From Candidatus Micrarchaeota archaeon (GTDB taxonomy: Archaea > Micrarchaeota > Micrarchaeia > Norongarragalinales > Norongarragalinaceae), in assembly GCA_043799765.1 (NCBI GenBank), contig JAZDNL010000037.1, positions 1-36,443 of the forward strand: 36,443 nucleotides of DNA, read 5' to 3'. Made by a program: the position numbers and the translations under genes. Below the pieces are notes generated by a model, which was given only the letters and a program-made list of their open reading frames with translations, searched no databases and was not told the origin of the DNA. Below are positions 6,270-35,499 of this stretch, in pieces (position 1 is the first letter of the stretch; each line of letters opens with the position of its first letter).

Positions 6270-6271
6270 GC

Positions 6272-11106: not shown

Positions 11107-11114
11107 TTTTTAAT
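11107..11114 (+). promoter_or_regulatory. TATA-like box for the idsA-ispH-ispE operon
   Basis: TTTTTAAT, about 24 nt upstream of ATG 11135. Confidence 0.45.
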
Positions 11115-11134
11115 GCTGGCGCGGTGTTTTAGCC

Positions 11135-13765: not shown

Positions 13766-14238
13766 TTTTTATAAACGAGCGCTACCGCGTACGCCATCAC
13801 GCCCTCGCCCTTTCCGAAGGCGGACAGCGTTTCCCCCGTAGTCGCGGTTATGCCGATTTTATCCGCGGGGATGCCCAGTATTTTCGAAAGCGACGCCTGC
13901 ATCTTCTCGAAGGAAGGTTCTATTTTCGGCTTCGCGCATTCTATCGAGATTGCGACGTTCGCGACGCCGTAGCCCGCGTCCTTCACTTTTTTCAGCGCGA
14001 CCTTTACGTATTCGCGGCTGTCTTTTACGCCTGCCTTGCACATGGCGTCGGCGTAGGAGGAAAGGGAGCGTCCGCCAACCGCCGACGTCAGGGCGTTGCA
14101 CAGCGCGTGAAGGACCACGTCGCCGTCGGAGTTCGCCTTGAATCCTTCGATGCCTTCGAACGCAACTCCGCCGAGCACGCACTTCCTTCCTTTTTCAAAG
14201 GCATGCGAATCGTGCCCCAACCCGATGCGAAATTCCAT
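13762..14238 (-). CDS. ispF: 2-C-methyl-D-erythritol 2,4-cyclodiphosphate synthase (IspF)
   Basis: FRIGLGHDSHAF and SDGDVVLHALCNAL motifs. The ATG at 14238 overlaps the ispD stop by 1 nt (TGATG). 158 aa. Confidence 0.9.
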   Translation of the reverse strand: MEFRIGLGHDSHAFEKGRKCVLGGVAFEGIEGFKANSDGDVVLHALCNALTSAVGGRSLSSYADAMCKAGVKDSREYVKVALKKVKDAGYGVANVAISIECAKPKIEPSFEKMQASLSKILGIPADKIGITATTGETLSAFGKGEGVMAYAVALVYKN

Positions 14239-15533
14239 CAAATCACCTGCAAAAGCGTTTTTACGCGCGCATAAATCTCGCGCAACCTGTTCTCCGCAAG
14301 CTCGCACGCCCTCGCGAGCATCGGGTTCTGCGGCTTAAGGCGCGACTGGATGTCCGCGAAGCGCTCGTCCAGCCCCATCACCACGCCGCCCTGCCCGACG
14401 CACAGGTCCGCGTACGTGAGTATCTCCGCGGCGAGCGACGACGGCAGCAAATCCTGCGGCGCGAACCCGTACTGCGACAGGTCCGTGCCGCGCAGCTTCG
14501 CCTCTTCGAACGCGGCGTTGTGCGAAAGCACGACGCGCGCGACGCCTTCCTCGTTTTTCGCCCGCAGGAAAACAGCGGCGTCAACCGCGTGCACGCCCGC
14601 CTTGTTCAGCGGTTCTGCGTAACCGATGTCGTGAAGCAGCGCCGCGATGCGCAATTCCTCGACGTCGAGAAGCTCTATGCGCTTCACGAGCGACGCCTGC
14701 GAGTATTTGCCCTTGGAAAGGTTCTCCTTGAGCTTGAGCGCGGTTTCCGCCGCGACGCGCGCGACTTCGAGATCGTGCTTGTAGCGCGTCGGGTTCTCGC
14801 CCAGATAATGCTTAAGCATCCGCATCGCGTCGTCGTACGTCAGGCGCGTCTTCGTCATCCTCCTCCGCAAAACGTCCTCGGCGAAAACGATGTCCTCGAG
14901 CGTGGTAATCTTGATGTTCTCGTAGCTCCCCTCGACGATTTTCACGGGCACGCCTATGCGCTCGACCAGCTGCGCGTCGTCGGTGCCGTAAAACTTCTCC
15001 GCAAGCGCCTTTTCGAACGCCTTCAACGCGACGTCGTACCTGATGCACTGCGGCGTCTGGATCGCCCAGAGCGCGGCGCGCACCGGCGTTTCCTGGACGA
15101 GCATGTCGGCGCCGACGCGCTTCACCGTTTCCTTCACGCGCGTCCCTACCACGGCGGCGCCCGTCTCCTTCGCGGCGTTTATGCACTCCGTAATCTCCTT
15201 CTGCGTAACGAGCGGGTTCGCGCCGTTGTGGATTGCGACGATATCGCAGGGCGGGCACGCCTTCAGGCCGTTGTAAACCGAATCCTGGCGCTCCTGCCCG
15301 CCGGCTACTACGGCGCGCACCTTCTTGAAGCCGAAGTCCTTCGCCATCGACTGGAAGTCGGGCATGCGCTCCTCCCCGCAGACTATTATGATGTCCGTGA
15401 CGAGCGGGTTGTCCTCGAACGCCTGCATCGCGTGCGCTGAAACGGGCTTGCCGAGAAGCGGGAACAGCTGTTTGCTGATTCCCCCGAGCCGCTTCGCCTT
15501 TCCGGACGCGGCAATAATCGCGACTACCTTCAT
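14238..15533 (-). CDS. ispD: 2-C-methyl-D-erythritol 4-phosphate cytidylyltransferase (IspD) fused to a C-terminal HD-domain phosphohydrolase
   Basis: aa 1-225 read VAIIAASGKAKRLGG...VAGGQERQDSV...YENIKITTLEDI (IspD). aa ~226-431 carry H..(48)..LLHDIGY...YADL, the H-HD-D pattern of the HD superfamily. Confidence 0.8.
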   Translation of the reverse strand: MKVVAIIAASGKAKRLGGISKQLFPLLGKPVSAHAMQAFEDNPLVTDIIIVCGEERMPDFQSMAKDFGFKKVRAVVAGGQERQDSVYNGLKACPPCDIVAIHNGANPLVTQKEITECINAAKETGAAVVGTRVKETVKRVGADMLVQETPVRAALWAIQTPQCIRYDVALKAFEKALAEKFYGTDDAQLVERIGVPVKIVEGSYENIKITTLEDIVFAEDVLRRRMTKTRLTYDDAMRMLKHYLGENPTRYKHDLEVARVAAETALKLKENLSKGKYSQASLVKRIELLDVEELRIAALLHDIGYAEPLNKAGVHAVDAAVFLRAKNEEGVARVVLSHNAAFEEAKLRGTDLSQYGFAPQDLLPSSLAAEILTYADLCVGQGGVVMGLDERFADIQSRLKPQNPMLARACELAENRLREIYARVKTLLQVI

Positions 15534-16603
15534 GCCTTTCGCCTCTCCTTCAGCATCGCGTCGATTTCATCGAACAGCGCGCCGACGATTTCTTTTTCGG
15601 GAACCTTGCGTACCACCTGCCCCTTCCGGAATATCACGCCTACTCCGCGTCCGCCTGCGACTCCGACGTCGGCTTCGCGTGCCTCGCCGGGGCCGTTTAC
15701 CACGCAGCCCATCACCGCGACGTGGAACGGTTCCTTGTACGCCTGCAGCCTTCCCTCGACTTCCTCGGCGATTTTTATGAGGTTGATTTCCGTGCGCCCG
15801 CACGTGGGGCAGGACGTCATTATCGGCCCGCGCTCGCGCATGCCCAGGTCCTTGAGTATTTCGTATCCGACGCGCACCTCTTCCAGAGGCGACGCCGTAA
15901 GGGAAACGCGTATCGTGTCGCCGATTCCTTCCATCAGCAGGGCTCCGAGCGCCATTGACGACTTGATGCTCCCGCCGAGAACCGTGCCTGCTTCCGTGAC
16001 GCCCAGATGAAGAGGGTAATCGCACTGCTTGGCCATGAGGCGGTACGCGGCAACGGTACGCGGGACATCACTGAACTTAAGCGATATCACTATGTCATGG
16101 AAATCCAAGGACTCCAGGATTTTCACGTGCCCTAACGCGCTTTCAACAGCGGCTTCGGGCGTCGGATGCCCGTACTTCTGCAGCAGCTTCGGCTCAAGCG
16201 AACCCGCGTTGACGCCGATGCGCATCGGGATGTGCGCGTTTTTCGCCGCCTTTACGACGGCGCGCACCTTTTCCTCTCCGCCTATGTTTCCGGGGTTGAT
16301 GCGCAGCTTCGAAACGCCGTTGTCGATGCACTTGAGCGCGAGCTTGTAGTCGAAATGGATGTCCGAGCAGACGGGAATGGGCGAATCCCTGGTGATGAGC
16401 TTGACTGCGTCCGCCGCCTTTTCATCGGGTATGGCGACGCGAACGAGTTCGCATCCCCGTTCGGCGAGGGCGCTTATCTGCTCCAGCGTTTTCTTCGCGT
16501 CGCGCGTATCGGTGTTGCACATGCTCTGCACAACTACGGGCGCACCGCCGCCGATTTTCACGGAACCCGCGTGCACCTGCCTGGATTTACGCCTTGGAAA
16601 CAT
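15530..16603 (-). CDS. ispG: 4-hydroxy-3-methylbut-2-en-1-yl diphosphate synthase (IspG/GcpE)
   Basis: VKIGGGAPVVVQSMCNTDTRD, RVAIPD, SCPTCGRT and MGCVVNGPGEA motifs. The ATG at 16603 (MFPRRKS) is preferred over the Arg-rich extension to 16687. Confidence 0.9.
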   Translation of the reverse strand: MFPRRKSRQVHAGSVKIGGGAPVVVQSMCNTDTRDAKKTLEQISALAERGCELVRVAIPDEKAADAVKLITRDSPIPVCSDIHFDYKLALKCIDNGVSKLRINPGNIGGEEKVRAVVKAAKNAHIPMRIGVNAGSLEPKLLQKYGHPTPEAAVESALGHVKILESLDFHDIVISLKFSDVPRTVAAYRLMAKQCDYPLHLGVTEAGTVLGGSIKSSMALGALLMEGIGDTIRVSLTASPLEEVRVGYEILKDLGMRERGPIMTSCPTCGRTEINLIKIAEEVEGRLQAYKEPFHVAVMGCVVNGPGEAREADVGVAGGRGVGVIFRKGQVVRKVPEKEIVGALFDEIDAMLKERRKA

Positions 16604-17738
16604 GTTTTTCAGCCTCTTTTCTCGCCCACGCGTCCGCCGCGAGTATCTCCTCCAGCGACGGCGACGAAACCGCGCGGTGCGCGGCAACTACCCTGCTTAC
16701 GGTTCCCGGAATGTCCATGAAACCGATTTTCTTGTTCAGGAAAGCAAAAACCGCGATTTCGTTCGCCGCGTTCATCACCGCGGGAACGGTTCCGCCCTTT
16801 TCGCCCGCGTTCAGCGCAATTCGGAAGCACGGGAACCGCTCCTCGTCGATTTTCTTGAACGTAAGGGAGCCGACTTCCGCCAGGTTCAGCCGCTTCAACG
16901 AGGGGTTCGGCAGGCGTTCGGGATAGGAAAGCGCGTACTGGATCGGCAGGCGCATGTCCGGCAAACCAAGTTGTGCCATCACCGACGTGTCCTCGAACTC
17001 CACGAGCGAATGAATCACGCTCTGCGGATGGATTACCGCCTCGATTTTTCCGTAAGGCACGCCGTAAAGCCAGTGCGCTTCTATCACTTCCAACCCCTTG
17101 TTCATCAGCGTCGCGGAATCAATCGTGATTTTCCCGCCCATCGCCCAGTTTGGGTGCTTGAGCGCCTGTTCGGGCGTTGCCTTCTCCATCTGCTCAAGCG
17201 TCCAGCCGCGGAACGAGCCTCCCGACGCCGTGATTATGATGCGCGCTATTGCCTTCCAGTTCTCGCCGTGTAGGCACTGGAAAATCGCGGAGTGCTCGCT
17301 GTCTATCGGCATGAGCGTGACGTCCTCCTTCTTAACGAGAGGCATCACGACGCTTCCGCCTGCGACCAGCGTCTCCTTGTTCGCGAGCGCGACGTTTTTC
17401 TTCGCCTTGATTGCGGCGACTGTTGGCTTCAGCCCGGCTGCGCCGACAATCGCGGTGACGACGGTATCGCAGCCGTCCATCGTCGCCAGCGCGCGCAAGC
17501 CGTCCTCGCCGTGGAGGATTTCAATTGACGGAAGCTTGGAGCGCAGCTTTTTCGCATCCTCCTCCTTTGAAACGCAAACCGCCTTGGGTTTAAACTGCTT
17601 CGCCTGTTTTTCAATAAGTTCGACGTTCCCGCCGGCACTAAGTCCGACTATTTTAAATTTTTCAGGGAAGCGGCTGGCGACGTCCAGCGTCTGGGTGCCG
17701 ATGGAGCCCGTTGAACCGAGAACGCACAAGCGCTTCAT
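16587..17738 (-). CDS. dxr: 1-deoxy-D-xylulose 5-phosphate reductoisomerase (Dxr/IspC)
   Basis: MKRLCVLGSTGSIGTQTLDV, LANKETLV, PIDSEHSAIFQC and NAANE motifs. The ATG at 17738 overlaps the dxs stop (ATGA); the 106-aa upstream extension is Arg-rich noise. Confidence 0.9.
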   Translation of the reverse strand: MKRLCVLGSTGSIGTQTLDVASRFPEKFKIVGLSAGGNVELIEKQAKQFKPKAVCVSKEEDAKKLRSKLPSIEILHGEDGLRALATMDGCDTVVTAIVGAAGLKPTVAAIKAKKNVALANKETLVAGGSVVMPLVKKEDVTLMPIDSEHSAIFQCLHGENWKAIARIIITASGGSFRGWTLEQMEKATPEQALKHPNWAMGGKITIDSATLMNKGLEVIEAHWLYGVPYGKIEAVIHPQSVIHSLVEFEDTSVMAQLGLPDMRLPIQYALSYPERLPNPSLKRLNLAEVGSLTFKKIDEERFPCFRIALNAGEKGGTVPAVMNAANEIAVFAFLNKKIGFMDIPGTVSRVVAAHRAVSSPSLEEILAADAWARKEAEKHVSKA

Positions 17739-19603
17739 TTTCCGCACAACCTTTCGATTCCCTTGAGAACCCCTTCCTTGTTCAGACCATACTGCGCGAG
17801 GAGGATGTCCGGCGCGCCGTGCTCGATGAACTCGTCGGGATAGCCGAGGCAGTGCACCTTCGCTGCGATTCCCTGGCGCGCAAGCAGCTCGAGAATCTCG
17901 CTCCCGAATCCGCCCGCAAGAACGCCGTCCTCGACAGTGAGCACGTGCCCCGTCTTTTTCGCGTATTCCAGGATGAGCGTTTCGTCTAGCGGCTTGATGT
18001 ACTGCGGATCTATTACGGCGACGGAACGTTTCGACTCTTTTGCCGCCTCGAGGCAAACGTTCGCCATTACTCCCACTCCGATCAACACGGCGTCATTTCC
18101 ATCTTTCATCAGGTGGGCCTTTCCGAAAGGCATTTCCTTGAACTCCTTCTTCAGCGGCAAGCCCGGCCCGGAACCGCGCGGGTAGCGCACCACAACGGGG
18201 CCGTTGTGCTTGACGGCGGTGTAAAGCATGTCCTGCAGCTGCGGCTCGTTTGACGCCGACATTATCACCAAGTTCGGAACCGAACGCAGGAATGAGATGT
18301 CGAAAACCCCGTGATGCGTCGGCCCGTCGTCGCCGACTATTCCCGCCCTGTCGATTGCGAACGTTACGGGAAGGTTTTGCAGACAGACGTCGTGTATCAG
18401 CTGGTCGTAGGCGCGCTGGAGGAACGAGGAATACACCGCCACAACTGGGTGCAGGCCGTTTGAAGCCATTCCCGCCGCGAACGTAACGGCGTGCTGCTCC
18501 GCGATTCCCACGTCGAAGAAGTTCTCGGGGAACGCTTCCGCGAGTTTTATGGTCCCCGTTCCCGACGGCATCGCGGCGGTTATGCCCACTATTTTCTTGT
18601 CCTGCCTTACGAGCTCTACTAGCGTCTCGCCGAACACGTCCTGGAACGCGGGCTTGCCCTTTGCCTTGACGGGCTTGCCGCTTTCGGGATCAAAAGGGGC
18701 GCAGCCGTGGAAGCGCGGCAGGTCGTCCTCGGCGTATTCGCATCCCTTGCCCTTCTGCGTGATGACGTGAAGCAGCACGGGGCCGCGCATCTTCTTTATC
18801 ATTTCAAACGTTTCTATGAGTTTCGCGATGTCGTGCCCGTCAATCGGCCCGACGTACGTGAAGCCCAGTTCCTCGAAAACCAGGCCGCTCGTCAGAACCG
18901 TAAGCGCGGCTTCCCTCAAGCGGCGCACGGTGTCCACCAATTCCTTCTGCTCAGGAGGAATCTGGGACAGCATGTAGTAGATGTCCTGCCGCACGCGGTT
19001 GTACACGGGCCAGTTCGGCACTTTTTTCGCGAGCCGGTTGGTGTAGAACGACATCGCGCCGACGTTCGGCGATATGGACATGAAGTTGTCGTTCAGGATT
19101 ACGATCAGGTCGGTTCCGCGGTGCCCCGCCTGGTTCAGCGCCTCGAAGGACATCCCGCCGGTCATTGCGCCGTCGCCTATCACCGCAAGAACCTTGTAGT
19201 TCTCGCCTTTCATGTCGCGCGCCTGCGCTATGCCGAGCGCCGCGGATATGGACGTGGACGCGTGCCCCGTGCCGAAAACGTCGTGCTCGCTCTCGCACAT
19301 CTTGGGGAACCCGCTGATGCCCTTGTGCTGCCGTATCGTGCCGAAGCGTTCCCGCCTTCCCGTGAGGAGCTTGTGCACGTAGCACTGGTGCCCGACGTCC
19401 CAGACGAATTTATCGCGGGGCGAGTTGAAGACGTAGTGCATGGCTATGGTGAGCTCGACAACGCCGAGATTCGGCGCGAGGTGCCCGCCGGTGACGGACA
19501 CCGTCTTGATTATGGTCTCCCTTATCTCGGCGGCAAGCTTCGGCAGCTCCGCCGCCGAAAGCCGCTTCAAGTCGCTAGGGGAGTCTATGTTTTCCAGAAG
19601 CAT
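17735..19603 (-). CDS. dxs: 1-deoxy-D-xylulose-5-phosphate synthase (Dxs)
   Basis: GGHLAPNLGVVELT, WDVGHQCY, GTGHASTSISAALG and the IGDGAMTGGM ThDP motif. 622 aa. Confidence 0.92.
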   Translation of the reverse strand: MLLENIDSPSDLKRLSAAELPKLAAEIRETIIKTVSVTGGHLAPNLGVVELTIAMHYVFNSPRDKFVWDVGHQCYVHKLLTGRRERFGTIRQHKGISGFPKMCESEHDVFGTGHASTSISAALGIAQARDMKGENYKVLAVIGDGAMTGGMSFEALNQAGHRGTDLIVILNDNFMSISPNVGAMSFYTNRLAKKVPNWPVYNRVRQDIYYMLSQIPPEQKELVDTVRRLREAALTVLTSGLVFEELGFTYVGPIDGHDIAKLIETFEMIKKMRGPVLLHVITQKGKGCEYAEDDLPRFHGCAPFDPESGKPVKAKGKPAFQDVFGETLVELVRQDKKIVGITAAMPSGTGTIKLAEAFPENFFDVGIAEQHAVTFAAGMASNGLHPVVAVYSSFLQRAYDQLIHDVCLQNLPVTFAIDRAGIVGDDGPTHHGVFDISFLRSVPNLVIMSASNEPQLQDMLYTAVKHNGPVVVRYPRGSGPGLPLKKEFKEMPFGKAHLMKDGNDAVLIGVGVMANVCLEAAKESKRSVAVIDPQYIKPLDETLILEYAKKTGHVLTVEDGVLAGGFGSEILELLARQGIAAKVHCLGYPDEFIEHGAPDILLAQYGLNKEGVLKGIERLCGK

Positions 19604-19627
19604 AGACAGGATTAGGGCTTCCGAAAC

Positions 19628-19634
19628 AATAAAA
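19628..19634 (-). promoter_or_regulatory. TATA-like box for the dxs-dxr-ispG-ispD-ispF operon
   Basis: TTTTATT on the minus strand, about 28 nt upstream of ATG 19603. Confidence 0.4.
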
Positions 19635-19685
19635 CCCTTTCGCCAAACGTCAATCGTCCCTACGTCTTTTGACGAAGGAAGGCGA

Positions 19686-19692
19686 TTTAAAA
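19686..19692 (+). promoter_or_regulatory. TATA-like box for the EamA-like gene
   Basis: TTTAAAA, 27 nt upstream of ATG 19716. Confidence 0.45.
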
Positions 19693-19715
19693 CACGCCTG
19701 CGTTGTTTTGAGCGT

Positions 19716-20132
19716 ATGGAAAGCTGGCTGCTCTACGCGCTCGGCGCGATGCTTCTTCTGGCAGGAGGGAACTTCGCCTTCAAGATACTCGCGAAGGACT
19801 TCAATTTCGCGAACACGCTGGAGAACAAGACCGTGCCGATAGCGCTCATAGCGCTCGGATGCGGCGCGGCAATCTACTTCCTCGTTTTCCCGAACGCGCC
19901 GCCCGCGCTGCTCACTTGGCTCGCAGCGGCGGTCATATGCTCGGTGCTGGGCTACTTCCTGGTAATCGCCTCGCTCAATACGGGCAACGTGGCGCTCGTC
20001 AGCGCGGTGCTGAGCTTGGGCACCATCGTGCTTGCGCTGGCATCCGTGAAATTCCTGGGCGAAACGTTCACGCCCACTCAGGCGGTGGCGATGCTGCTGG
20101 CCGTCTGTAGCGTCGCGATACTGGCTCTCTGA
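19716..20132 (+). CDS. Small EamA/DMT-like membrane protein (single 4-TM EamA-type domain)
   Basis: The ATG at 19716 (MESWLLYALGAMLLLAGGNFAFK) lies 27 nt after a TTTAAAA box. About 138 aa, four hydrophobic helices. The upstream part of ORF 19440.. overlaps dxs in antisense. Confidence 0.6.
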   Translation: MESWLLYALGAMLLLAGGNFAFKILAKDFNFANTLENKTVPIALIALGCGAAIYFLVFPNAPPALLTWLAAAVICSVLGYFLVIASLNTGNVALVSAVLSLGTIVLALASVKFLGETFTPTQAVAMLLAVCSVAILAL

Positions 20133-26861: not shown

Positions 26862-27872
26862 TTAGTAAAGCGTTTCGGCATTCAACGGATAGCTCGTGCA
26901 CTGCCGGATGTCATCAAGCCCCATCGCGCTTTGCGAGATTCTCGAAAATCCGATGCCGCACCCCGAATGGAGAATCGGGTTTTGTTTCACGACGTCCAGA
27001 TAGTCGCCGAATTCGTCTATTGAAACGCCGCGCTTGCTGAGGATGTCGTACATCGGGCTTTCGAGAAGGCGTTTGTAAAGAAGTTCGTAGTCATTTTCGC
27101 GCTCCGCGCTTCCTACGGCTTCGCCGCCGTACGGCATTATCAAGTCCGCGCTGTTCACGACCAGCGGGTTCTCGCGGTTCTGCCGCATGTTGAAGAATTT
27201 AATCGCAGTGGGAAAGTGCGTTATGAAGAGCGGCTTCCCTCCGAGCGCCTGCACGAGGAAGAGTTCGTGCTGCCTTTTGAGGTCGTCGCCCCACGCGATC
27301 TGGAAGTGCGTGTCGGCGAGCATTTCCACGGCAGCGGTGTAGGTCATGCGGTTGAAAGGCGAGAGGTACGTTTCCAATTCTGGGATGTCGCGTCCGAGGA
27401 ATTCAAGCTCGGGACGGGCGTTTTTCAGCGCGCTCTTCAGCATCGCTTTCACCGTGCCTTCCACGTTCATAAGCATGCTCTCGAAATCGCCCTGATGCTC
27501 GAACTCGAGAAGCTGGAACTGGTTCAGGTGGCGCTCGTCCGCGGTTGCCTCGGCGCGGGAGCTCGTAATAACAGTCCAAACCTTTTTGTGGCGCGGAATC
27601 TTCGCCTCCAGATAGAGCTGCCCGGTTTGCGCGAGGTACGCCTGCCTTCCGAAATGCTGAAGGCTGTAAAGCGTGTCAACGTTCTCGCAGGCGCCGGTTA
27701 TGCGCGTTATGGTGGGCACGTCCATCCACGTAAAGCCGTGTTCATGGAAGTACTCGAGCGCGCCCCAGTACAGCGCGTCGTTCACCTTGTCGATTGCCAC
27801 GAACTCGTCGCCGTTTATCTTCTTGAAGCGTCCCTCCGTGCTTTTCAGCATTTCCAGTTGCGCCTGCATCAT
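26862..27872 (-). CDS. Class II aaRS catalytic-core paralogue (AsnRS-like archaeal asparagine synthetase A type), no anticodon-binding domain
   Basis: AYLAQTGQLYLEA, SSRAEATADERHLNQFQLLEFE (motif 2-like) and GCGIGFSRI (motif 3-like). Only 336 aa, with no N-terminal OB fold. Confidence 0.55.
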   Translation of the reverse strand: MMQAQLEMLKSTEGRFKKINGDEFVAIDKVNDALYWGALEYFHEHGFTWMDVPTITRITGACENVDTLYSLQHFGRQAYLAQTGQLYLEAKIPRHKKVWTVITSSRAEATADERHLNQFQLLEFEHQGDFESMLMNVEGTVKAMLKSALKNARPELEFLGRDIPELETYLSPFNRMTYTAAVEMLADTHFQIAWGDDLKRQHELFLVQALGGKPLFITHFPTAIKFFNMRQNRENPLVVNSADLIMPYGGEAVGSAERENDYELLYKRLLESPMYDILSKRGVSIDEFGDYLDVVKQNPILHSGCGIGFSRISQSAMGLDDIRQCTSYPLNAETLY

Positions 27873-27915
27873 TCCACCACCCCGAACCCTCTCAACGGAA
27901 AGGGATATATTGGTT

Positions 27916-27937
27916 TGTTGTAAAAATACTTACAACA
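27916..27937. promoter_or_regulatory. Perfect inverted repeat TGTTGTAA-N6-TTACAACA abutting the TrmB-family gene start (candidate operator)
   Basis: Arms at 27916..27923 and 27930..27937 are exact reverse complements. The repeat ends 1 nt before ATG 27939 and lies downstream of the ATATATT box at 27905..27911. Confidence 0.45.
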
Positions 27938-27938
27938 C

Positions 27939-28652
27939 ATGAAAGAAGAAACGCTGATGAAAGCCGGAGGGTTGTCGCGCAACGAGGCGAAGGTTTACCT
28001 CGCGCTCGTTAAGCTCGGCTCCTCGAAAGCCGGCCGCGTCTCCAAGGAAGCGGCCATAGACCGCACCTCCACCTACAATTCGCTGAAGGGGCTGATGGAG
28101 AAGGGGCTGGCGTCCTACGTCACCATAGGGAAGGTGAAGTGGTTCCAGGCAGCTCACCCGAAGAACATACGCGAATATCTGGAGGGAAAGCTCGAGGTAA
28201 TAGCGGAAATAATGCCCGAATTGGAACGCGAATACTCCGCAGCAAAACTCCAGAACAACGTGCGGCTCTACAAAGGCATGAAGGGCGTCAAAACAGTCCT
28301 GAGAATGGTGCTGGACACGCGGAAGGAAAGCCGCGTGTTCGGCTCGGAAAACCAGCTGGACGAGCGCATGCCGGAGTTCGCGGCGAAATTCAAGGCTCAG
28401 ATGGCGAAGCGGGGGATAAGGACGAGGCGCATAGTGCGAAAAGGAAGGATGGTGGAAAAAGAGGCGTTGCGGGACGTGCGCTTCGTTCCTCTGGAAACCG
28501 AATCTCCCGTCGTTACCAACGTTTTCGGCAACAAGATAGCGATAATCGTGTGGACCGAAACCCCGGAGGCGATACTGATAGACAACGCCGACGCCGCGGA
28601 GGCGTATCGCGGATACTTCGACTTCATGTGGGAACGGGCGGAGAAACGATAA
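27939..28652 (+). CDS. TrmB-family transcriptional regulator
   Basis: N-terminal winged HTH GLSRNEAKVYLALVKLGSSKAGRVSKEAAIDRTSTYNSLKGLMEKGLASYV. 237 aa. Confidence 0.8.
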   Translation: MKEETLMKAGGLSRNEAKVYLALVKLGSSKAGRVSKEAAIDRTSTYNSLKGLMEKGLASYVTIGKVKWFQAAHPKNIREYLEGKLEVIAEIMPELEREYSAAKLQNNVRLYKGMKGVKTVLRMVLDTRKESRVFGSENQLDERMPEFAAKFKAQMAKRGIRTRRIVRKGRMVEKEALRDVRFVPLETESPVVTNVFGNKIAIIVWTETPEAILIDNADAAEAYRGYFDFMWERAEKR

Positions 28653-28653
28653 C

Positions 28654-28923
28654 TCAACGCTTTTTGGATATTTTCATTCCGGTCCGCTTCTCGAACTCCT
28701 TGGCGGAAATTGTCTTTTCCTTGCCGAGTGCGATGTCGCGCTCGATGCGTTTCGCCTCGCGCAGATCCTCCTCGTCCTCCATCTGTTCCAGAAGCTTGTA
28801 CCGGTTGTCGAGCTCCAGCAGACCGAGCATTATTGCGTCAGTTTTCGTCTTGGCGATTCCCGCTTTGACCGCTCCGGCCATTATCTGTTCGGGAATTCCG
28901 ACAAGTTTCACGTTCATGTTCAT
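28654..28923 (-). CDS. Putative ribbon-helix-helix antitoxin-like protein
   Basis: MNMNVKLVGIPEQIMAGAVKAGIAKTKTDAIMLGLLEL fits a strand-helix-helix pattern, followed by an acidic C-terminal tail. The first ATG is at 28923; the TTG at 28947 is the alternative start. Divergent from the RelE-like gene. Confidence 0.4.
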   Translation of the reverse strand: MNMNVKLVGIPEQIMAGAVKAGIAKTKTDAIMLGLLELDNRYKLLEQMEDEEDLREAKRIERDIALGKEKTISAKEFEKRTGMKISKKR

Positions 28924-28952
28924 AAAATCACAATAAATAGCATACAAACCAC

Positions 28953-28960
28953 TATATAAA
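28953..28960 (-). promoter_or_regulatory. TATA box for the RHH antitoxin-like gene
   Basis: TTTATATA on the minus strand, about 30-34 nt upstream of ATG 28923. Confidence 0.35.
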
Positions 28961-29005
28961 GCATACTGGAAGGGATGCCGGCGGCGGTTTAAGGGCGCAC
29001 GCCGC

Positions 29006-29284
29006 GTGCTGCGTTTGGGGGAAAACGTGTCCGACTACGAAGCGATTTTCACGAAAAGCTTTGCCGAGTCGCTGCGAAAACTCGACAGGCACGCTAGGGA
29101 GGTGGCGGAAAAGCGCATAGCGAGGATAATGGAAGCTCCGCTTCTTTCCAAGAACCTCTGCGGCGACGCATTCCGTTTCAGCGAGAGATTCATGGAATAC
29201 CGGATTGTCTTCAAGGTGGAGGGAAGGGCTATAACGTTCCTGCGGCTGGGCAAGCGCGACAACGTCTATTCGCAATCTTTTTAA
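29006..29284 (+). CDS. relE: RelE/ParE-family type II toxin (mRNA interferase)
   Basis: YEAIFTKSFAESLRKLDRHAREVAEKRIARIMEAP...LCGDAFRFSERFMEYRIVFKVEGRAITFLRLGKRDNVY matches the RelE/StbE pattern. The start is GTG 29006 or GTG 29027. Confidence 0.7.
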   Translation: MLRLGENVSDYEAIFTKSFAESLRKLDRHAREVAEKRIARIMEAPLLSKNLCGDAFRFSERFMEYRIVFKVEGRAITFLRLGKRDNVYSQSF

Positions 29285-31154: not shown

Positions 31155-33341
31155 ATGGCACGAAAGGAAGTCGTAGTCGATGACGTTGTCCGCCTGATGG
31201 CGAACCGCGACAGCATACGCAACATCGGAATCGTCGCGCACGTCGACCATGGAAAGACGACGCTCAGCGACTCGCTCGTCGCGCGCGCAGGACTTATTTC
31301 GAAGGAGCTCGCGGGAGAGCAGCGCGTGCTGGATTACGACGAGCAGGAACAGGCGCGCGGAATCACCATCAAGGCGGCGAACATCTCGCTCGGATTCACC
31401 TACGACGGCCAGGAATACCTCATCAACCTTATCGACACTCCGGGGCACGTGGACTTCGGAGGGCACGTAACCCGTGCCATGCGCGCCGTAGACGGAGTCA
31501 TCCTCGTAGTCGACAGCGTCGAGGCGGTGATGCCCCAAACTGAAACAGTTCTCAGGCAGGCGCTCAAGGAGAAGGTGCGCCCCGTTCTTTTCATCAACAA
31601 GATAGACCGCCTGATAAACGAGCTGAAGCTCGACGCCAAGGGCATGCAGGACAGGTTCATCAAAATCATAACGAGCGTAAACCATCTCATCGAAACGTAC
31701 GGCCCTCCCGAGTTCAAGGAAGACTGGATGATAAAGGTGGAGAAGGGCAACGTCGCTTTCGGGACGGGCTTCCACAAGTGGGCGATCAGCTACCCGCGCA
31801 TGAAGGAAACGGGCATCACGTTCGGCGACATCTACAAGTTCTGCGCCGAGGGCAACCACACGGAGCTGCAGAAGAAGGCGCCTGTCGACGAGGTAATTCT
31901 CGAGATGGCAATCAAGCACCTTCCTTCGCCCAACACGTCGCAGAGATACCGCATCCCCGTCATCTGGCAGGGCGACATCAAAAGCGAGCACGGGCAGGGC
32001 ATGGTGAACTGCGACCCCAATGCAAAAGTCACGTTCATGGTAACCGCCATCCAGGTGGATGAGCACGCCGGCGAAGTCGCAATCGGAAGAATTTATTCGG
32101 GCACCGCCCGCAAGGGAATGGACGTGTACATGGGCTCTCAGTACAAGACTGAGAAGATCCAGGGCGTCGCCATTTACATGGGGCCCGACCGCGTGCCTGT
32201 CGAATTTGCGACTGCCGGGAACATCATCGCGCTCGTAGGTTTGAAGGACGTTTACGCTGGCGAAACGCTTTCGGAAGGCGAGATGGTGCCTTTCGAGAAG
32301 ATCAAGCACCACTCCGAACCCGTCGTCACAAAGAGCATCGAGGCGAAGAACCCGCGCGACCTGGTAAAGCTGATTGACGCCCTTCGTAAGATAGCGAAGG
32401 AAGACCCGACGGTCCGCGTTGAAATCAACCAGGAAACTGGCGAACATTTGCTTTCCGGAATGGGAGAGCTGCATCTCGAAATCATCGAGTACAAGATATC
32501 GCACGAGCGCGGCGTTGCCATAGAGACGTCGCCTCCGATTGTCGTGTATCACGAAACCATCGGCGCGGAAGGCCCCGAGGTCGAGGGAAAATCCCCGAAC
32601 AAGCACAACAAGTTCAAGATACAGGTGGAGCCGCTGCCCGAAACAGTCGTGAAGGCGATAAACGAAGGCGAAATCGACGACAAGACAAAGGGCAAGGACC
32701 TCATCGAGCGCCTGATAAAAGCAGGAATGGAGCGCGACGACGCGAAGAAGGTAATCTGCATGTACGGCAGCAACGCGTTCATCGACTCCACCAAGGGAGT
32801 CCAGGGCCTGCAGGACATCCGCGAGCTTCTCACGGAGGCGTACAAGGACGCGATGAAGGCCGGGCCGCAGGCGAAGGAGTCCTGCATCGGCGTGGTCGTG
32901 CGCCTGAACGACGCCACCATCCACGTGGACCCCGCGCACCGCGGACCCTCGCAGATTATCCCCGCGATTAAGCGGCCGATATTCGCGAGCATGCTGCAGG
33001 CGAAGCCCGCACTGCTCGAACCCAAGCAGAAGCTCGTCGTCACTGCGCCCACCGATTACCTGAGCAACGTCATCAACCAGATTAACGCCCGGCGCGGACA
33101 GGTTACCGACATCCAGCAGGATTTGGGCGCGTCCAACGTGACGGCGAACGTTCCGGTTGCAACCATGTTCGGGTTCGCGAACGACATCCGCGGCGCGACG
33201 CAGGGACGCGCGGCGTGGTATTACGAGTTCCTCGGGTACGAGAAGCTGCCGGGATCGCTGCAGGCGACGACAATCGCGAGCATCCGCAAGCGCAAGGGCG
33301 AGTCCGAGATGGTTCCGACCGCCCGCGATTTCATGGACTGA
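31155..33341 (+). CDS. fusA: Translation elongation factor 2 (aEF-2)
   Basis: IRNIGIVAHVDHGKTTLSD, LIDTPGHVDF and NKIDR GTPase motifs. 728 aa. The last 8 codons plus the stop lie inside the 29-bp direct repeat. Confidence 0.95.
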   Translation: MARKEVVVDDVVRLMANRDSIRNIGIVAHVDHGKTTLSDSLVARAGLISKELAGEQRVLDYDEQEQARGITIKAANISLGFTYDGQEYLINLIDTPGHVDFGGHVTRAMRAVDGVILVVDSVEAVMPQTETVLRQALKEKVRPVLFINKIDRLINELKLDAKGMQDRFIKIITSVNHLIETYGPPEFKEDWMIKVEKGNVAFGTGFHKWAISYPRMKETGITFGDIYKFCAEGNHTELQKKAPVDEVILEMAIKHLPSPNTSQRYRIPVIWQGDIKSEHGQGMVNCDPNAKVTFMVTAIQVDEHAGEVAIGRIYSGTARKGMDVYMGSQYKTEKIQGVAIYMGPDRVPVEFATAGNIIALVGLKDVYAGETLSEGEMVPFEKIKHHSEPVVTKSIEAKNPRDLVKLIDALRKIAKEDPTVRVEINQETGEHLLSGMGELHLEIIEYKISHERGVAIETSPPIVVYHETIGAEGPEVEGKSPNKHNKFKIQVEPLPETVVKAINEGEIDDKTKGKDLIERLIKAGMERDDAKKVICMYGSNAFIDSTKGVQGLQDIRELLTEAYKDAMKAGPQAKESCIGVVVRLNDATIHVDPAHRGPSQIIPAIKRPIFASMLQAKPALLEPKQKLVVTAPTDYLSNVINQINARRGQVTDIQQDLGASNVTANVPVATMFGFANDIRGATQGRAAWYYEFLGYEKLPGSLQATTIASIRKRKGESEMVPTARDFMD

Positions 33342-33343
33342 GG
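33315..33343. repeat. Direct repeat copy 1 (CCGACCGCCCGCGATTTCATGGACTGAGG), the 3' end of aEF-2
   Basis: Perfect 29/29 match to 34018..34046, found by reading both stretches. It covers codons PTARDFMD, the stop and GG. Confidence 0.9.
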
Positions 33344-33347
33344 AAAA

Positions 33348-33971
33348 CTATTTCCCTTTCGCCGCGGGAAGCCTTAGTATATACATCTCGGTTACTGCTT
33401 GCGCCAGATTCCTGACCGCGGGATGGCTCGGGGACAGGAAGTTTCCCGGACCTTTGATACCTATAATGACGCCTGGCATGACGGAAACGGTGGTTTGGCG
33501 GCTTATGCGCTGGCTTTCCTTGATTTCGTCCTCGGGAACGGAAACTCTGACGCGGATTTGGCGAACCGCCTTGTAGAAGGAAAAGTCTACGCCGAATTTG
33601 TCGGCAATGCCCTGGAGTTCTGTGCGGTGTTTTTTCGACATCCGTCTCAGATGCAGATCCGATAAATTCAGAAACACTTCGGCATAACCGAAACCCGTTT
33701 CCGTTTCTCCAGGTACGGGTTTCCCGTGCTCATGGGCATAGGCGACAAACCTGGGCCGGGTGGGGATGAGAACGCCGAAAGAGGGCGTGATGCGTTCCTT
33801 CAAGGACTGCCAAAATGCGAGTTTTACTGGGATGGATTCCGTTCTCAATCCTTTAGGAAGCAAAGCCAACAGCGCGTCGTTATGGCTAGCCTCAAGCTTT
33901 TCCAGCTCCATAAACGCCGGCATCCGCGACAATAATGACGGCATTCGCGGCATTAGTTTTTCCTTGCCCAT
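33348..33971 (-). CDS. Hypothetical protein (orphan cargo of the repeat-bracketed insert)
   Basis: The ATG at 33971 (MGKEKLMPRMPSLL...) lies about 26 nt after ATATATA (33994..34000, minus strand). 207 aa. The stop is 5 nt from repeat copy 1. I recognise no motif. Confidence 0.55.
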   Translation of the reverse strand: MGKEKLMPRMPSLLSRMPAFMELEKLEASHNDALLALLPKGLRTESIPVKLAFWQSLKERITPSFGVLIPTRPRFVAYAHEHGKPVPGETETGFGYAEVFLNLSDLHLRRMSKKHRTELQGIADKFGVDFSFYKAVRQIRVRVSVPEDEIKESQRISRQTTVSVMPGVIIGIKGPGNFLSPSHPAVRNLAQAVTEMYILRLPAAKGK

Positions 33972-33993
33972 AATTAAAACGCGAAAGCGCACA

Positions 33994-34000
33994 ATATATA
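33994..34000 (-). promoter_or_regulatory. TATA box of the orphan cargo gene
   Basis: ATATATA, about 26 nt upstream of ATG 33971. Confidence 0.4.
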
Positions 34001-34017
34001 CATTTGGAAAGATAGCG

Positions 34018-34046
34018 CCGACCGCCCGCGATTTCATGGACTGAGG
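34018..34046. repeat. Direct repeat copy 2 (orphan copy of the aEF-2 3' end)
   Basis: Identical 29-mer. ORF 33760..34044 ends ...APTARDFMD, the same tail as aEF-2. Confidence 0.9.
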
Positions 34047-34070
34047 CGGCTATGGCGCCCGCGTCGGGCC

Positions 34071-34751
34071 CTACCGGTGCAGGCTCACATAATTTACTTT
34101 AGGCAGCGGCACGCCGCGGTGAAAGACGGTCGAAATCGAAACTGCGGTCGGGAGCGGCGTCTCCTTCATTTTTTGGAATGAAACGGAATGCTTCCTTGTC
34201 TTGAACCCGCGCCTGCCTAGCCACTTGGCCAGCGGCTTCGGCCCGTCTTCTTCGTAAACAAGGTCCGTTTCCTTCTGCGAGTGCCGAAAAAGATTCACGT
34301 GGGCTTCGCCGCCTATCGGAGAAAGAACCCGGTTTACCTCGCGGAGCAGCCATGGCCGATCCCTGATGTAAGGCGCGGTTCCAACGCTTATGACGAAATT
34401 TATCGAATCGTTCCTGAAAGGAAGGGACAGGCAGTCCGCAGTCACCGCCGAACCGACCCTCGTCCCGTTGAAATCCTCTACGGAAAGGTTGAGCGGTATT
34501 ATCTCGAAGGCGGCGTTCCGCTTCTTGAGAAGGGAATCTATCTTTTTGGCAACCACTCCTTCGCCGGCGCCTATCTCAAGAATGCGGAAAACTCCCCCAG
34601 GCCGCCCGCGACGTTCCCATTCGGAGTATGCCCGCGTCACTTGTTTCAGGAGGTTGATGCCCAGATACTTGTTGTAAGAACGCAGTCCGCGGCAGCCGAT
34701 ATTGCCCTGCGCAAGCAGCACGCGTTTTGCGTTTTGCCAATAGTTCGGCAT
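34071..34751 (-). CDS. Class I SAM-dependent methyltransferase
   Basis: Motif I FRILEIGAGEGVVA and a later acidic/aromatic region. The ATG at 34751 (MPNYWQN) lies 25 nt from TTTTAAAT. The longer ORF to 34937 would overlap the uL1 start. Confidence 0.6.
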   Translation of the reverse strand: MPNYWQNAKRVLLAQGNIGCRGLRSYNKYLGINLLKQVTRAYSEWERRGRPGGVFRILEIGAGEGVVAKKIDSLLKKRNAAFEIIPLNLSVEDFNGTRVGSAVTADCLSLPFRNDSINFVISVGTAPYIRDRPWLLREVNRVLSPIGGEAHVNLFRHSQKETDLVYEEDGPKPLAKWLGRRGFKTRKHSVSFQKMKETPLPTAVSISTVFHRGVPLPKVNYVSLHR

Positions 34752-34764
34752 GGGAAAGTCCTGA

Positions 34765-34788
34765 CGAAACGCTTTTAAATCCGTTTCG
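34765..34788 (-). promoter_or_regulatory. TATA box (TTTTAAAT, 34773..34780) flanked by the inverted repeat CGAAACG/CGTTTCG
   Basis: The arms at 34765..34771 and 34782..34788 are exact reverse complements and bracket the box. The box lies 25 nt upstream of the methyltransferase ATG 34751. Confidence 0.4.
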
Positions 34789-34824
34789 ACAGGAATATAG
34801 TTCCTGCTTATCCCGCAGAACTGC

Positions 34825-34860: not shown

Positions 34861-35499
34861 ATGCCGATAACGAAGGAACACATTACGAAGGCAATAGACG
34901 CCGCCCTTAGCGAAGGCAAGGGCAAGCGCAAATTCACTCAAAGCGTGGACCTCGCCGTCGGATTCAAGGACGTGGACTTCAACAAGGCGGAGAACAGGCT
35001 CAATCTGGACATAGTTCTCCCGCACCCGCCGAGAAAGGCGAAAATCGCGATTTATGCCGACGCAACAATCATGACGAAGGCGCGCGAAGTCGCCGACCTG
35101 ATCATCATGGCGGACGAGATTCCAGTTTACGCTTCGGACAAGAAGAAGCAGAAGCAGCTTCTGGACTACAACGGGCTCGCAGCTCCGTCGCTCATGGTTC
35201 CGATTGGAAAGGCGCTCGGACAGTTTTTGGGAGCGAAAGGACGCCTCCCGAAGCCGGTTATGCCGAACGCCGATTTGAAGGAAGTAGTTGAGCGCACGCG
35301 CAGGACAATCAACATCAAGAGCAAGGGCAAGTACCTTCCCGCGGTGAGCTGCATCGTCGGAAACGAGAACATGCCGACTGCGGAAATAGCGGAGAACGTG
35401 CTGACGATTTTCGAAGCCATTGAAAAGAAGGTGCCCGAGCACAACATCAAGAGCGTTTTCATCAAAACAACCATGGGCAAGCCCGCGAGACTATTGTGA
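34861..35499 (+). CDS. rpl1: Ribosomal protein uL1
   Basis: ITKEHITKAIDAAL...KRKFTQSVDLAVGFKDVDF. GGAGG lies 12 nt upstream of ATG 34861. Confidence 0.9.
   Translation: MPITKEHITKAIDAALSEGKGKRKFTQSVDLAVGFKDVDFNKAENRLNLDIVLPHPPRKAKIAIYADATIMTKAREVADLIIMADEIPVYASDKKKQKQLLDYNGLAAPSLMVPIGKALGQFLGAKGRLPKPVMPNADLKEVVERTRRTINIKSKGKYLPAVSCIVGNENMPTAEIAENVLTIFEAIEKKVPEHNIKSVFIKTTMGKPARLL

What the first reader, a model, noticed from the sequence alone, without database searches (positions are those of the whole stretch)
33315..34046. Perfect 29-bp direct repeat of the aEF-2 3' end brackets a 674-bp foreign-looking insert
Seen: CCGACCGCCCGCGATTTCATGGACTGAGG occurs at 33315-33343 (the last 8 codons, the stop and 2 nt of aEF-2) and again, 29/29 identical, at 34018-34046. 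The 674 bp between the copies are visibly lower in GC and use many A/T-ending codons (TTA, CTT, GGT, GTA, TAT). The flanking genes use almost only G/C-ending codons. Established: duplication of a gene 3' end is the classic footprint of site-specific integration that rebuilds the target gene. From my memory of the casposon literature (to be verified), the 3' end of aEF-2 is a reported integration site for thaumarchaeal casposons and other integrated elements. Inference: this is an attL/attR or target-site-duplication scar. It would come either from a decayed larger element or from a very small non-autonomous cassette mobilised in trans. A 29-bp repeat fits a recombinase att core better than a short transposition duplication.
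Basis: partly seen in the sequence, partly recalled or inferred. Interest (0 to 1): 0.7.

Follow-up and report, generated by a model that had tools for sequence, protein, structure and literature searches.

The report
Gene-insertion hot spot behind archaeal EF-2
The exact 29-base repeat is real and marks where a small one-gene piece of foreign DNA was recombined in just behind the elongation factor 2 gene of a tiny (Micrarchaeota) archaeon, at a spot where related genomes carry nothing or quite different genes; no enzyme that could move it is in sight.

Summary
CCGACCGCCCGCGATTTCATGGACTGAGG occurs at 33315-33343 (last 8 codons, stop and 2 nt of aEF-2) and at 34018-34046, 29/29 identical, with none expected by chance.

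The 674 bp between the copies are almost entirely one orphan gene, ORF207, on the minus strand. It has the lowest GC3 and codon adaptation of 39 window genes.

The host is a Micrarchaeota archaeon of the Candidatus Norongarragalina clade. In this clade the aEF-2/rpl1 spacer is a hot spot:
- one relative has no insert;
- four assemblies carry one unrelated 248-aa gene;
- others carry radical-SAM + TcmP + an IS200-type transposase;
- at least one more variant exists.

All variants start right after the aEF-2 stop and end at the same 20-mer. So the window's extra DNA is about 1.4 kb: the ORF207 module, repeat copy 2, and a SAM-methyltransferase module.

Best reading: the newest module entered by a crossover within the aEF-2 tail (att-like or Campbell-type), next to an older one.

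There is no integrase, Cas1, transposase or terminal inverted repeat. No second copy of either cargo gene exists in any database, and no site lacking only the 674 bp was found. It is not a casposon.

Assembly error cannot be excluded without reads. Interest is moderate.

The parts
31155..33341 (+). aEF-2 gene (728 aa), the target gene. Its reading frame is intact and ends inside repeat copy 1.
   Evidence: Pfam GTP_EFTU, EF-G_D2, EFG_III, EFG_IV and EFG_C. It is 96% identical in protein to the EF-2 of Ca. Norongarragalina meridionalis, L001.
33315..33343 (+). Repeat copy 1 (attL-like): the last 8 codons, the TGA stop and GG of aEF-2.
   Evidence: Exact 29-mer; 2 matches in the window, 0 in shuffles.
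33344..34017 (.). The 674-bp insert (ORF207 module), absent from all relatives.
   Evidence: No blastn or tblastn match in any of about 25 clade loci. GC 0.47-0.55. No terminal inverted repeats.
33348..33971 (-). ORF207, an orphan gene that fills the insert. The longest open frame runs on to an ATG at 34037 inside repeat copy 2.
   Evidence: An open frame of 232 codons has p=0.0007 against dinucleotide shuffles. The GC1/GC2/GC3 pattern is that of a coding frame. No hit in Pfam, PHROGs or PADLOC; NCBIfam gave only two sub-threshold hits. No homologue found. The AlphaFold2 model has pLDDT 42. Lowest CAI and GC3 of 39 genes.
33969..34017 (-). Leader and promoter-like right end of the ORF207 module. 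It has a TATA-like ATATATAC at 33994-34001, about 27 nt upstream of the ATG. It is a diverged copy of the locus's own right-junction sequence.
   Evidence: Global alignment to the L081 right junction gives p=0.002, and to the window's own right junction p=0.015.
34018..34046 (+). Repeat copy 2 (attR-like for the ORF207 module, and the left junction of the methyltransferase module).
   Evidence: Exact 29-mer. No other locus of the clade has a second tail copy.
34071..34751 (-). Class I SAM-dependent methyltransferase (226 aa). It is the second, probably older, cargo module (34047-34760) and is also absent from relatives.
   Evidence: Pfam Methyltransf_11 at 2.8e-10 and Methyltransf_25. No close homologue. 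Absent from L001, L081, L082 and L091. GC3 0.66, CAI 0.62.
34761..34780 (.). Conserved right junction CTGACGAAACGCTTTTAAAT, shared with at most one missing base by every filled variant. It is the left half of an imperfect palindrome (34759-34794) centred on a TATA-like TTTTAAAT. It probably acts as a divergent promoter for the cargo gene and the rpl1 operon.
   Evidence: Alignment of seven junctions. Palindrome I7.
34861..35499 (+). rpl1 (ribosomal protein L1), the right-hand conserved anchor of the hot spot.
   Evidence: Pfam Ribosomal_L1. 95-98% identical proteins in the clade.

Best explanation
The two 29-bp copies are the junctions left when a small piece of DNA recombined with the chromosome by one reciprocal crossover inside the aEF-2 tail (Campbell-type, attL/attR-like).

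The incoming DNA carried three things: a copy of the aEF-2 tail, one gene (ORF207), and a diverged copy of this locus's own leader/promoter.

It landed at a site that already held an earlier acquisition, the methyltransferase module. Two one-gene modules therefore sit in tandem between aEF-2 and rpl1, and aEF-2 stays intact.

The spacer between aEF-2 and rpl1 is a lineage-variable hot spot in the Norongarragalina clade. Unrelated cargo is placed between the aEF-2 stop codon and a conserved promoter-bearing 20-mer.

The module encodes no recombinase. The crossover was made either by a site-specific recombinase supplied in trans or by the host's homologous recombination on 29 bp of identity. I cannot tell which, and rate the two about equally.

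**Shown:** the repeat, the extra DNA, the hot spot, the shared junctions, and the lack of mobility genes.

**Inferred:** a circular or circularised donor, the order of the two insertions, and the crossover mechanism.
For: - The 29/29 repeat overlaps the gene's 3' end with the reading frame preserved.
- The closest genome, L001, has aEF-2 followed directly by about 130 bp and then rpl1. Window 33342 to about 34760 is therefore extra.
- Different cargo sits at the same junctions in relatives: ORF248 in L081, L091, L103 and L104; rSAM + TcmP + IS200 TnpA in L082, L105-L107 and L099; another ORF in L094 and L098.
- The left junction lies right after GACTGAG(G/C) in all variants. The right junction is the same 20-mer in all.
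- The ORF207 module ends with a diverged copy of that right-junction leader (p=0.002). This fits DNA that came from the same locus of another lineage.
- ORF207 is the compositional outlier of the window and is a real open frame.
- Relatives at about 90% nucleotide identity differ from the window at 3-5 of these 29 bases. Zero differences between the two copies therefore argues for a recent or mechanistic duplication.
- Flank identities rank the relatives the same way on both sides, so there is no sign of a chimera.
- Precedents exist: ef-2 as a target, tandem integration there, and archaeal att sites of 29-69 bp (PMC6563490); att-flanked modules without an integrase in tandem at the 3' ends of housekeeping genes (PMC7563491).
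Against: - No recombinase of any kind is in the module, in the 36-kb window, or at this site in about 25 related loci. The one exception is an IS200-type TnpA in one variant.
- No site lacking only the 674 bp, no second copy of ORF207 and no circular form was found.
- The complete single-module variant V1 shows no tail duplication. The apparent third, degenerate tail copy at the window's right junction is not significant (p=0.24-0.6). Tail duplication is thus a one-off here, not the rule for the hot spot.
- If the donor was as diverged as its leader copy suggests, 29/29 identity of its tail to the resident tail is somewhat surprising.
- Reads were not available, so the assembly of the repeat is unverified.
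Confidence: 0.55

Rival explanations
1. Target-site duplication made by a transposase or casposase acting in trans. A staggered cut 29 bp apart at the aEF-2 tail was filled in after a mini-element (a non-autonomous casposon- or MITE-like unit) was inserted.
For: - aEF-2 3' ends are the commonest target of family 1 casposons, and tandem insertions occur there.
- Perfect direct repeats immediately flank the insert.
- A family 1 casposase can integrate very short TIR-bearing DNA in vitro (PMC8464041 abstract).
Against: - There are no terminal inverted repeats. The best inverted match of the ends scores at p=0.11 and is not terminal.
- There is no Cas1 or PolB in the window.
- 29 bp exceeds the reported casposon range of 1-27 with a median of 15. 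The real duplication of the Nitrosopumilus koreensis element is 13 bp.
- The right end of the insert is a diverged copy of host-locus leader sequence, not a transposon terminus.
- No other copy exists anywhere.
Confidence: 0.1
2. No dedicated mobile element at all. The locus is a 'replacement' flexible island whose cargo is swapped between lineages by homologous recombination in the conserved aEF-2 and rpl1 flanks. The 29-bp duplication is then a by-product of one unequal or illegitimate join between two different alleles (ORF207 allele and methyltransferase allele), for example homology-facilitated illegitimate recombination.
For: - Highly conserved flanks surround unrelated cargo in lineages of 87-93% identity.
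- There are no att-like repeats in the other variants.
- No recombinase is present at the site.
- The ORF207 module brings its own copy of the locus leader, as an allele from a relative would.
- The three minus-strand cargo genes share a similar leader, ATG and first codons.
Against: - The donor and resident tails would have to be identical over 29 bp although their leaders are only about 60% alike. Relatives differ at 3-5 of these 29 bases.
- The join falls exactly at the ends of a perfect repeat, as a crossover within the repeat would give.
- This rival overlaps with the homologous-recombination version of the best explanation. It differs mainly in the topology of the donor: a linear allele rather than a circle.
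Confidence: 0.2
3. Assembly artefact. The metagenome assembler threaded a loop or joined co-existing strain variants through the shared 29-mer, so the tandem arrangement does not exist in any one genome.
For: - The locus differs between lineages, and two variants co-occur in one sample: L091 and L095 are both from ERZ27293400.
- Many contigs of relatives break next to this locus.
- A 29-bp repeat is shorter than the usual final k-mers and would form a loop in an assembly graph.
Against: - The junction leader' - GATAGCG - 29-mer is not predicted by any simple mixture of single-module alleles. It needs a real molecule, either the tandem array or a circle.
- Flank identities to three relatives are consistent across the locus.
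- The contig breaks in relatives are explained by a multicopy IS200-type element.
- A circle sharing the 29-mer would itself be evidence of a mobile module.
Confidence: 0.08
4. Old in-situ tandem duplication of the whole unit (tail - gene - leader), followed by divergence of the two gene copies.
For: The window shows the order tail - gene - leader - tail - gene - leader. The two leaders are weakly alike (p=0.015).
Against: - ORF207 and the methyltransferase show no similarity at all (BLASTP E=6.7).
- The 29-mers are identical while the leaders are strongly diverged. One duplication date cannot explain both.
Confidence: 0.04

Closest known systems
Family 1 casposons of Thaumarchaeota integrated at the 3' end of aEF-2 (Krupovic et al. 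2014, 2016, 2019; PMC4046053, PMC4779613, PMC6563490)
   Same: - The same target gene and the same part of it.
- The target reading frame is preserved.
- Direct repeats flank the insert.
- Tandem occupation of the site is known (NitNF5-C1 and NitNF5-C2).
   Different: - No Cas1 casposase, no PolB and no terminal inverted repeats.
- 0.67 kb with one gene, whereas casposons are described as large DNA transposons (PMC5137440).
- The repeat is 29 bp, against a reported range of 1-27 and an experimentally defined 13 bp.
- A different phylum (Micrarchaeota, DPANN).
- The tail sequence is unrelated to the Nitrosopumilus target ATTGATAAAGAGT.
Cis-mobilizable elements (CIMEs) and tandem accretion at the 3' ends of fda, rpsI and rpmG in streptococci (PMC7563491)
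   Same: - Cargo-only modules bounded by att-type repeats of a housekeeping gene's 3' end.
- No recombination genes of their own.
- Modules sit in tandem at one site.
- Size range overlaps: CIMEs are 1.2-13 kb and microCIMEs 130-220 bp.
   Different: - CIMEs are defined by descent from, or tandem association with, ICEs or IMEs whose tyrosine integrase recognises the sites.
- No such element or integrase was seen here in any lineage.
- The known cases are bacterial, not archaeal.
Archaeal integrative elements with tyrosine recombinases (SSV/pTN3-type and thaumarchaeal iMGEs; PMC6563490)
   Same: - Direct repeats of the size reported for crenarchaeal att sites (29-69 bp).
- Integration into the 3'-distal part of protein-coding genes.
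- Re-use of one site to build arrays.
- A known case (NitEve-E2) where the element supplies a new stop codon.
   Different: - No integrase gene, whole or split.
- The module is far smaller than any described element.
- The module carries host-locus-like leader sequence.
Integron gene cassettes, including the archaeal integrons reported in 2022 (recalled from my own knowledge, not checked here)
   Same: - One-gene modules of about 0.7 kb, all in one orientation.
- They lie next to a fixed promoter.
- Cargo is unrelated from genome to genome.
- The recombinase is not in the cassette.
   Different: - No IntI gene and no recognisable attC.
- The repeated sequence is a gene tail, and it is present only once as a duplicate.
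- The array depth is two.

Membership tests
Casposon | Cas1-family casposase encoded in the element | tested here: not met
   ORF207 has no Pfam, PHROGs or PADLOC hit, and NCBIfam gave only two sub-threshold hits to unrelated enzymes. No Cas1 was found among about 40 window genes scanned.
Casposon | Family B DNA polymerase (self-synthesising) | tested here: not met
   The same scans apply. The insert holds a single 207-aa orphan ORF.
Casposon | Terminal inverted repeats (25-602 nt) | tested here: not met
   The best inverted alignment of the 40-nt ends scores 15 against a null of 11.5 +/- 2.5, p=0.11, and is not terminal. All 30 possible frames of the element were tried.
Casposon | Target-site duplication flanking the element, at the 3'-distal part of aEF-2 or of a tRNA gene | tested here: inconclusive
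   Perfect direct repeats at the aEF-2 tail are present. At 29 bp they are longer than any reported casposon duplication: range 1-27, median 15, and 13 bp when measured.
Tyrosine- or serine-recombinase integrative element | Integrase gene in the element | tested here: not met
   No Phage_integrase or resolvase hit in the insert, in the window, or in the cargo of relatives.
Tyrosine- or serine-recombinase integrative element | attL/attR direct repeats overlapping the target gene's 3' end, with the gene restored | tested here: met
   29/29 repeat; aEF-2 is intact.
Tyrosine- or serine-recombinase integrative element | Empty attB in close relatives, exactly lacking the element | tested here: inconclusive
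   L001 lacks the whole 1.4 kb. No sequence lacking only the 674 bp exists in the collections, and the methyltransferase gene is found nowhere else.
Tyrosine- or serine-recombinase integrative element | Excised circular form or attP copy | not testable with these tools
   No reads were available. The degenerate tail pattern found nothing in viral contigs.
CIME (cis-mobilizable element) | Bounded by att sites and lacking recombination or transfer genes | tested here: met
CIME (cis-mobilizable element) | Derived from, or in tandem with, an integrase-bearing element that uses the same att site | tested here: not met
   None of about 25 loci of the clade carries such an element at this site. The rest of the genome could not be searched.
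Integron cassette | IntI integrase with attI next to the array | tested here: not met
   No integrase in the window.
Integron cassette | attC recombination site at the end of each cassette | not tested
   No attC model was run. The repeat search showed no shared imperfect palindrome at the 3' ends of the two modules.
IS200/IS605 element or its non-autonomous derivative | Y1 (HUH) transposase, or the family's subterminal hairpins | tested here: not met
   ORF207 is not a Y1 transposase. No strong hairpins lie at the insert ends. By contrast, the real IS200-type copy in variant V2 has them.

The most novel reading that the evidence does not exclude
The aEF-2/rpl1 spacer of these DPANN archaea is a dedicated gene-capture platform, integron-like in logic but unrelated in parts. 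Unrelated promoterless ORFs would be recombined in between the aEF-2 tail and a fixed divergent promoter, leader and start-codon region. A recombinase encoded elsewhere, or by a host or symbiont partner, would do this with the aEF-2 tail as its attachment site. The window would then have caught a two-cassette array with the newest junction still perfect.
Probability: 0.12. Interest if true: 0.75.

Novelty: new variant of a known kind. Interest (0 to 1): 0.45.

Why it matters
Mobile elements and routes of gene flow in DPANN archaea are poorly charted, as far as I know. These archaea have very small genomes and depend on hosts.

This locus shows a precise, repeatedly used insertion point behind an essential translation gene. 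It holds at least five different contents across one genus, including a candidate anti-virus system. One case has a still-perfect recombination junction.

It extends the 'aEF-2 tail as landing pad' theme from Thaumarchaeota to a distant phylum, and to modules that carry no mobility genes.

If a trans-acting recombinase exists, the 29-mer gives a direct handle to find and test it. If none exists, the locus is a clean example of how short identities let host recombination stack foreign genes next to core operons.

Tried and rejected
1. **Homologues of ORF207.** The word-indexed search of 5.8 billion proteins and the exhaustive phmmer of 1.84 billion representatives found only the query itself. 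There was one spurious hit, P0002, a translated tandem repeat whose score comes from 12 short stretches. No hits in Pfam, PHROGs or PADLOC; NCBIfam gave only two sub-threshold hits (E 0.007 and 0.03, scores far below the cut-offs).
2. **Structure of ORF207.** The single-sequence AlphaFold2 model has pLDDT 42. It is too poor for a fold search, so none was run.
3. **Homologues of the methyltransferase.** Only the query itself was found. No relative appears in viral contigs for ORF207, the methyltransferase or ORF248.
4. **aEF-2 tail carried by a virus or plasmid.** The degenerate pattern CCNACNGCNCGNGAYTTYATGGA had 0 hits in viral contigs.
5. **Exact-protein look-ups** of the window's EF-2, S7, S12, L1 and ORF229 found nothing on record. 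No near-identical strain was available.
6. **Tail duplications elsewhere.** None was found in 80 Micrarchaeota or Thermoplasmatota genome loci, or in the clade loci.
7. **A third, decayed tail copy at the right junction.** One local alignment suggested it, but it is not significant (p=0.24-0.6). I dropped it, together with the idea that filled variants carry an element-derived TGA stop in place of the TAA seen in the empty L001. That idea rests on a single empty genome.
8. **Terminal inverted repeats** were not found.
9. **ORF207 as a decayed paralogue** of the neighbouring or the distant methyltransferase: no similarity.
10. **Relatedness among ORF207, ORF248 and the methyltransferase:** none.
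11. **tRNA genes or known RNA families at the site:** none. The only hit was a meaningless sub-threshold microRNA match.
12. **Resemblance between the aEF-2 tail and the conserved rpl1-upstream element** (shared GTTCC). I judged it within chance and did not use it.


Full report
**1. The observation**

- The 29-mer CCGACCGCCCGCGATTTCATGGACTGAGG is present exactly twice, at 33315-33343 and 34018-34046. Both copies are on the + strand. No third match appears with up to 3 mismatches, and none occurred in 100 dinucleotide shuffles.
- aEF-2 is the 728-aa ORF 31155-33341, with all EF-G/EF-2 domains. Copy 1 is its last 8 codons (PTARDFMD), the TGA stop and GG.
- Including 8 upstream bases the repeat is 34/37.
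- GC drops to 0.47-0.55 across the insert, from about 0.59 for the window.

**2. What lies between and beside the copies**

- *The insert (33344-34017)* is filled by one minus-strand ORF. The longest frame is 33348-34037, starting inside copy 2.
- The likely start of ORF207 is the ATG at 33971. It lies 27 nt from a TATA-like ATATATAC at 33994-34001 and gives 207 aa.
- An open frame of 232 codons is unlikely by chance (p=0.0007). Its GC1/GC2/GC3 pattern is that of a coding frame.
- ORF207 has no convincing family hit and no homologue in two very large protein searches. The one extra hit, P0002, is a translated tandem repeat. The structure model is unusable.
- ORF207 has the lowest GC, GC3 (0.607) and CAI (0.545) of 39 genes. 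It sits at the end of a continuum rather than apart from it.
- *Right of copy 2* lies a 226-aa class I SAM methyltransferase, 34071-34751 on the minus strand (Methyltransf_11, 2.8e-10). It also lacks close relatives and has GC3 0.66.
- *Further right* come rpl1 (34861-35499) and rpl10.
- There are no tRNA genes and no meaningful Rfam hit.
- Pfam scans of about 40 window genes found no integrase, Cas1, PolB or transposase.

**3. Whose genome**

- aEF-2 is 96% identical to that of CABMDO010000019 (L001).
- The L1 and EF-2 protein clusters contain VVB68172.1 and VVB68170.1 of Candidatus Norongarragalina meridionalis. The next L1 relatives are only 59% identical.
- The window therefore belongs to a narrow Micrarchaeota (DPANN) clade.

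**4. Comparison with relatives**

| Variant | Content between aEF-2 and rpl1 | Loci |
|---|---|---|
| V0 (empty) | about 130 bp only | L001 |
| V1 | one unrelated 248-aa orphan gene, minus strand | L081, L091, L103, L104 |
| V2 | radical-SAM gene, TcmP-family gene, IS200-type Y1 transposase with hairpin ends | L082, L105-L107 (left part); L093, L095-L097 and L099-L102 (right part) |
| V3 (window) | ORF207, second 29-mer, methyltransferase | window |
| V4 | different sequence against the same right junction | L092 |
| V5 | a small membrane ORF against the same right junction | L094, L098 |

- Homology between the window and L001 resumes only near 34761-34783. Window 33342 to about 34760 (1.4 kb) is therefore extra.
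- The V2 gene pair matches the PADLOC candidate defence system PDC-M41.
- In every filled variant the cargo begins right after GACTGAG(G/C), that is the aEF-2 stop plus 1-2 nt. It ends at CTGACGAAACGCTTTTAAAT, window 34761-34780.
- That 20-mer is half of an imperfect palindrome centred on a TATA-like box (I7). It is plausibly a divergent promoter.
- Nucleotide identity of the flanks ranks the relatives the same way on both sides of the locus: V1 strains 90-93%, L001 87-91%, V2 84-89%. These are different lineages, and there is no sign that the window contig is a chimera.

**5. What the second 29-mer means**

- Only the window has a second tail copy. It lies between two unrelated one-gene modules.
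- The right end of the ORF207 module (33969-34017) resembles the locus's own right junction. This is the cargo start codon, leader and TATA region.
  - Against L081 the p-value is 0.002.
  - Against the window's own junction it is 0.015.
- The three minus-strand cargo genes also share similar leaders and first codons, with p-values of 0.0005-0.04.
- The ORF207 module therefore looks like tail - gene - leader taken from the same locus of a more distant lineage. It appears to have been added by a crossover within the tail, to the left of a resident methyltransferase module.
- Relatives at about 90% identity differ from the window at 3-5 of the 29 positions. Two identical copies thus point to a recent or mechanistic duplication.

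**6. Mechanism**

- The topology fits a single reciprocal crossover between a tail copy on incoming DNA and the chromosomal tail. This is a Campbell-type event giving attL/attR-like junctions.
- I cannot decide between a site-specific recombinase acting in trans and host homologous recombination on 29 bp.
- For a dedicated enzyme:
  - the exact, repeatedly used left junction;
  - the known use of ef-2 tails by archaeal elements;
  - an att length typical of Crenarchaeota.
- Against a dedicated enzyme:
  - no recombinase at this site in about 25 loci;
  - no tail repeat in the complete V1 variant;
  - the proposed third relic copy is not significant.
- Transposition is disfavoured. There are no inverted repeats, 29 bp exceeds the reported casposon duplication lengths, and the insert's end is host-locus-like.
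- An in-situ duplication is nearly excluded.
- An assembly artefact is unlikely, because the leader'-to-29-mer junction needs a real molecule. It cannot be excluded without reads.

**7. Comparison with known systems**

- The locus works like tandem accretion of att-bounded, recombinase-less modules at the 3' end of a housekeeping gene, as with the CIMEs of streptococci.
- It shares its target gene with thaumarchaeal casposons.
- It fails the defining features of casposons (Cas1, PolB, TIRs) and of integrase-bearing elements.
- The CIME criterion of association with a cognate integrative element is not met in the available data.

**8. Verdict**

It is an insertion junction at a real hot spot, but the foreign DNA is twice as large as described. 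It is not a casposon, and current mobility is unproven.
- Novelty: a new variant of a known kind.
- Interest: 0.45.

Noticed in passing
window 11114-19732: A near-complete bacterial-type MEP/DOXP isoprenoid pathway is clustered in this archaeal contig: polyprenyl synthase, IspH, IspE, IspF, IspD (fused to an HD domain), IspG, DXR and DXS. Archaea normally use the mevalonate route. This looks like a transferred operon in a DPANN genome.
   Followed up: no
window 26874-28653: A clean 1.78-kb indel relative to L082: a class II tRNA-synthetase-like gene (tRNA-synt_2, 26862-27929, minus strand) and a TrmB-family regulator (27924-28652). The flanks abut exactly in L082 at position 4645. This is a second variable spot in the window.
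   Followed up: partly
window 28937-29284: A ParE-like toxin gene (Pfam ParE-like_toxin, 1.5e-4) lies in a low-GC stretch just upstream of the NusA/S12/S7/EF-2 operon. A possible antitoxin ORF at 28582-28959 has no family hit.
   Followed up: no
L099 1101-1571; L105 10127-10540; L082 12630-12974: An IS200/IS605-type Y1 transposase with GC-rich subterminal hairpins sits at the same hot spot in one lineage. Every contig of that lineage breaks inside it, so it is probably multicopy in that genome.
   Followed up: partly
L082 10751-12596 (also L105, L107): The cargo of variant V2 is a radical-SAM protein plus a three-Cys-motif partner protein (TcmP). The pair matches both components of the PADLOC candidate defence system PDC-M41. 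The hot spot can therefore hold defence-type genes.
   Followed up: partly
window 34795-34823: ATATAGTTCCTGCTTATCCCGCAGAACTG upstream of rpl1 is identical in the window, L001 and the V1 lineages (which are only about 87-92% alike in the flanking genes) and differs at two bases in V2/V5; the bases around it vary. It could be a regulatory element of the rpl1-rpl10-rpl12 operon, for example an L1 autoregulation site or a transcription signal.
   Followed up: no
window 34759-34794: An imperfect palindrome, TCCTGACGAAACGCTTTT / AAATCCGTTTCGACAGGA (83% complementary, no spacer), is centred on the TATA-like TTTTAAAT between the cargo gene and rpl1 (I7). It may be a symmetric divergent promoter or a regulator-binding site.
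   Followed up: partly
window 5652-6356: A second class I SAM methyltransferase has atypical codon usage (CAI 0.58, GC3 0.65). It is 29% identical over 103 aa to the hot-spot methyltransferase.
   Followed up: partly
L041, L043-L045, L047, L050 and other Thermoplasmatota loci: The aEF-2 matches there span 2.7-3.3 kb instead of 2.2 kb. NCBI names the partial clade protein PIT85514.1 'intein-containing elongation factor EF-2'. Inteins in aEF-2 seem common in those more distant lineages. None is present in the window.
   Followed up: no
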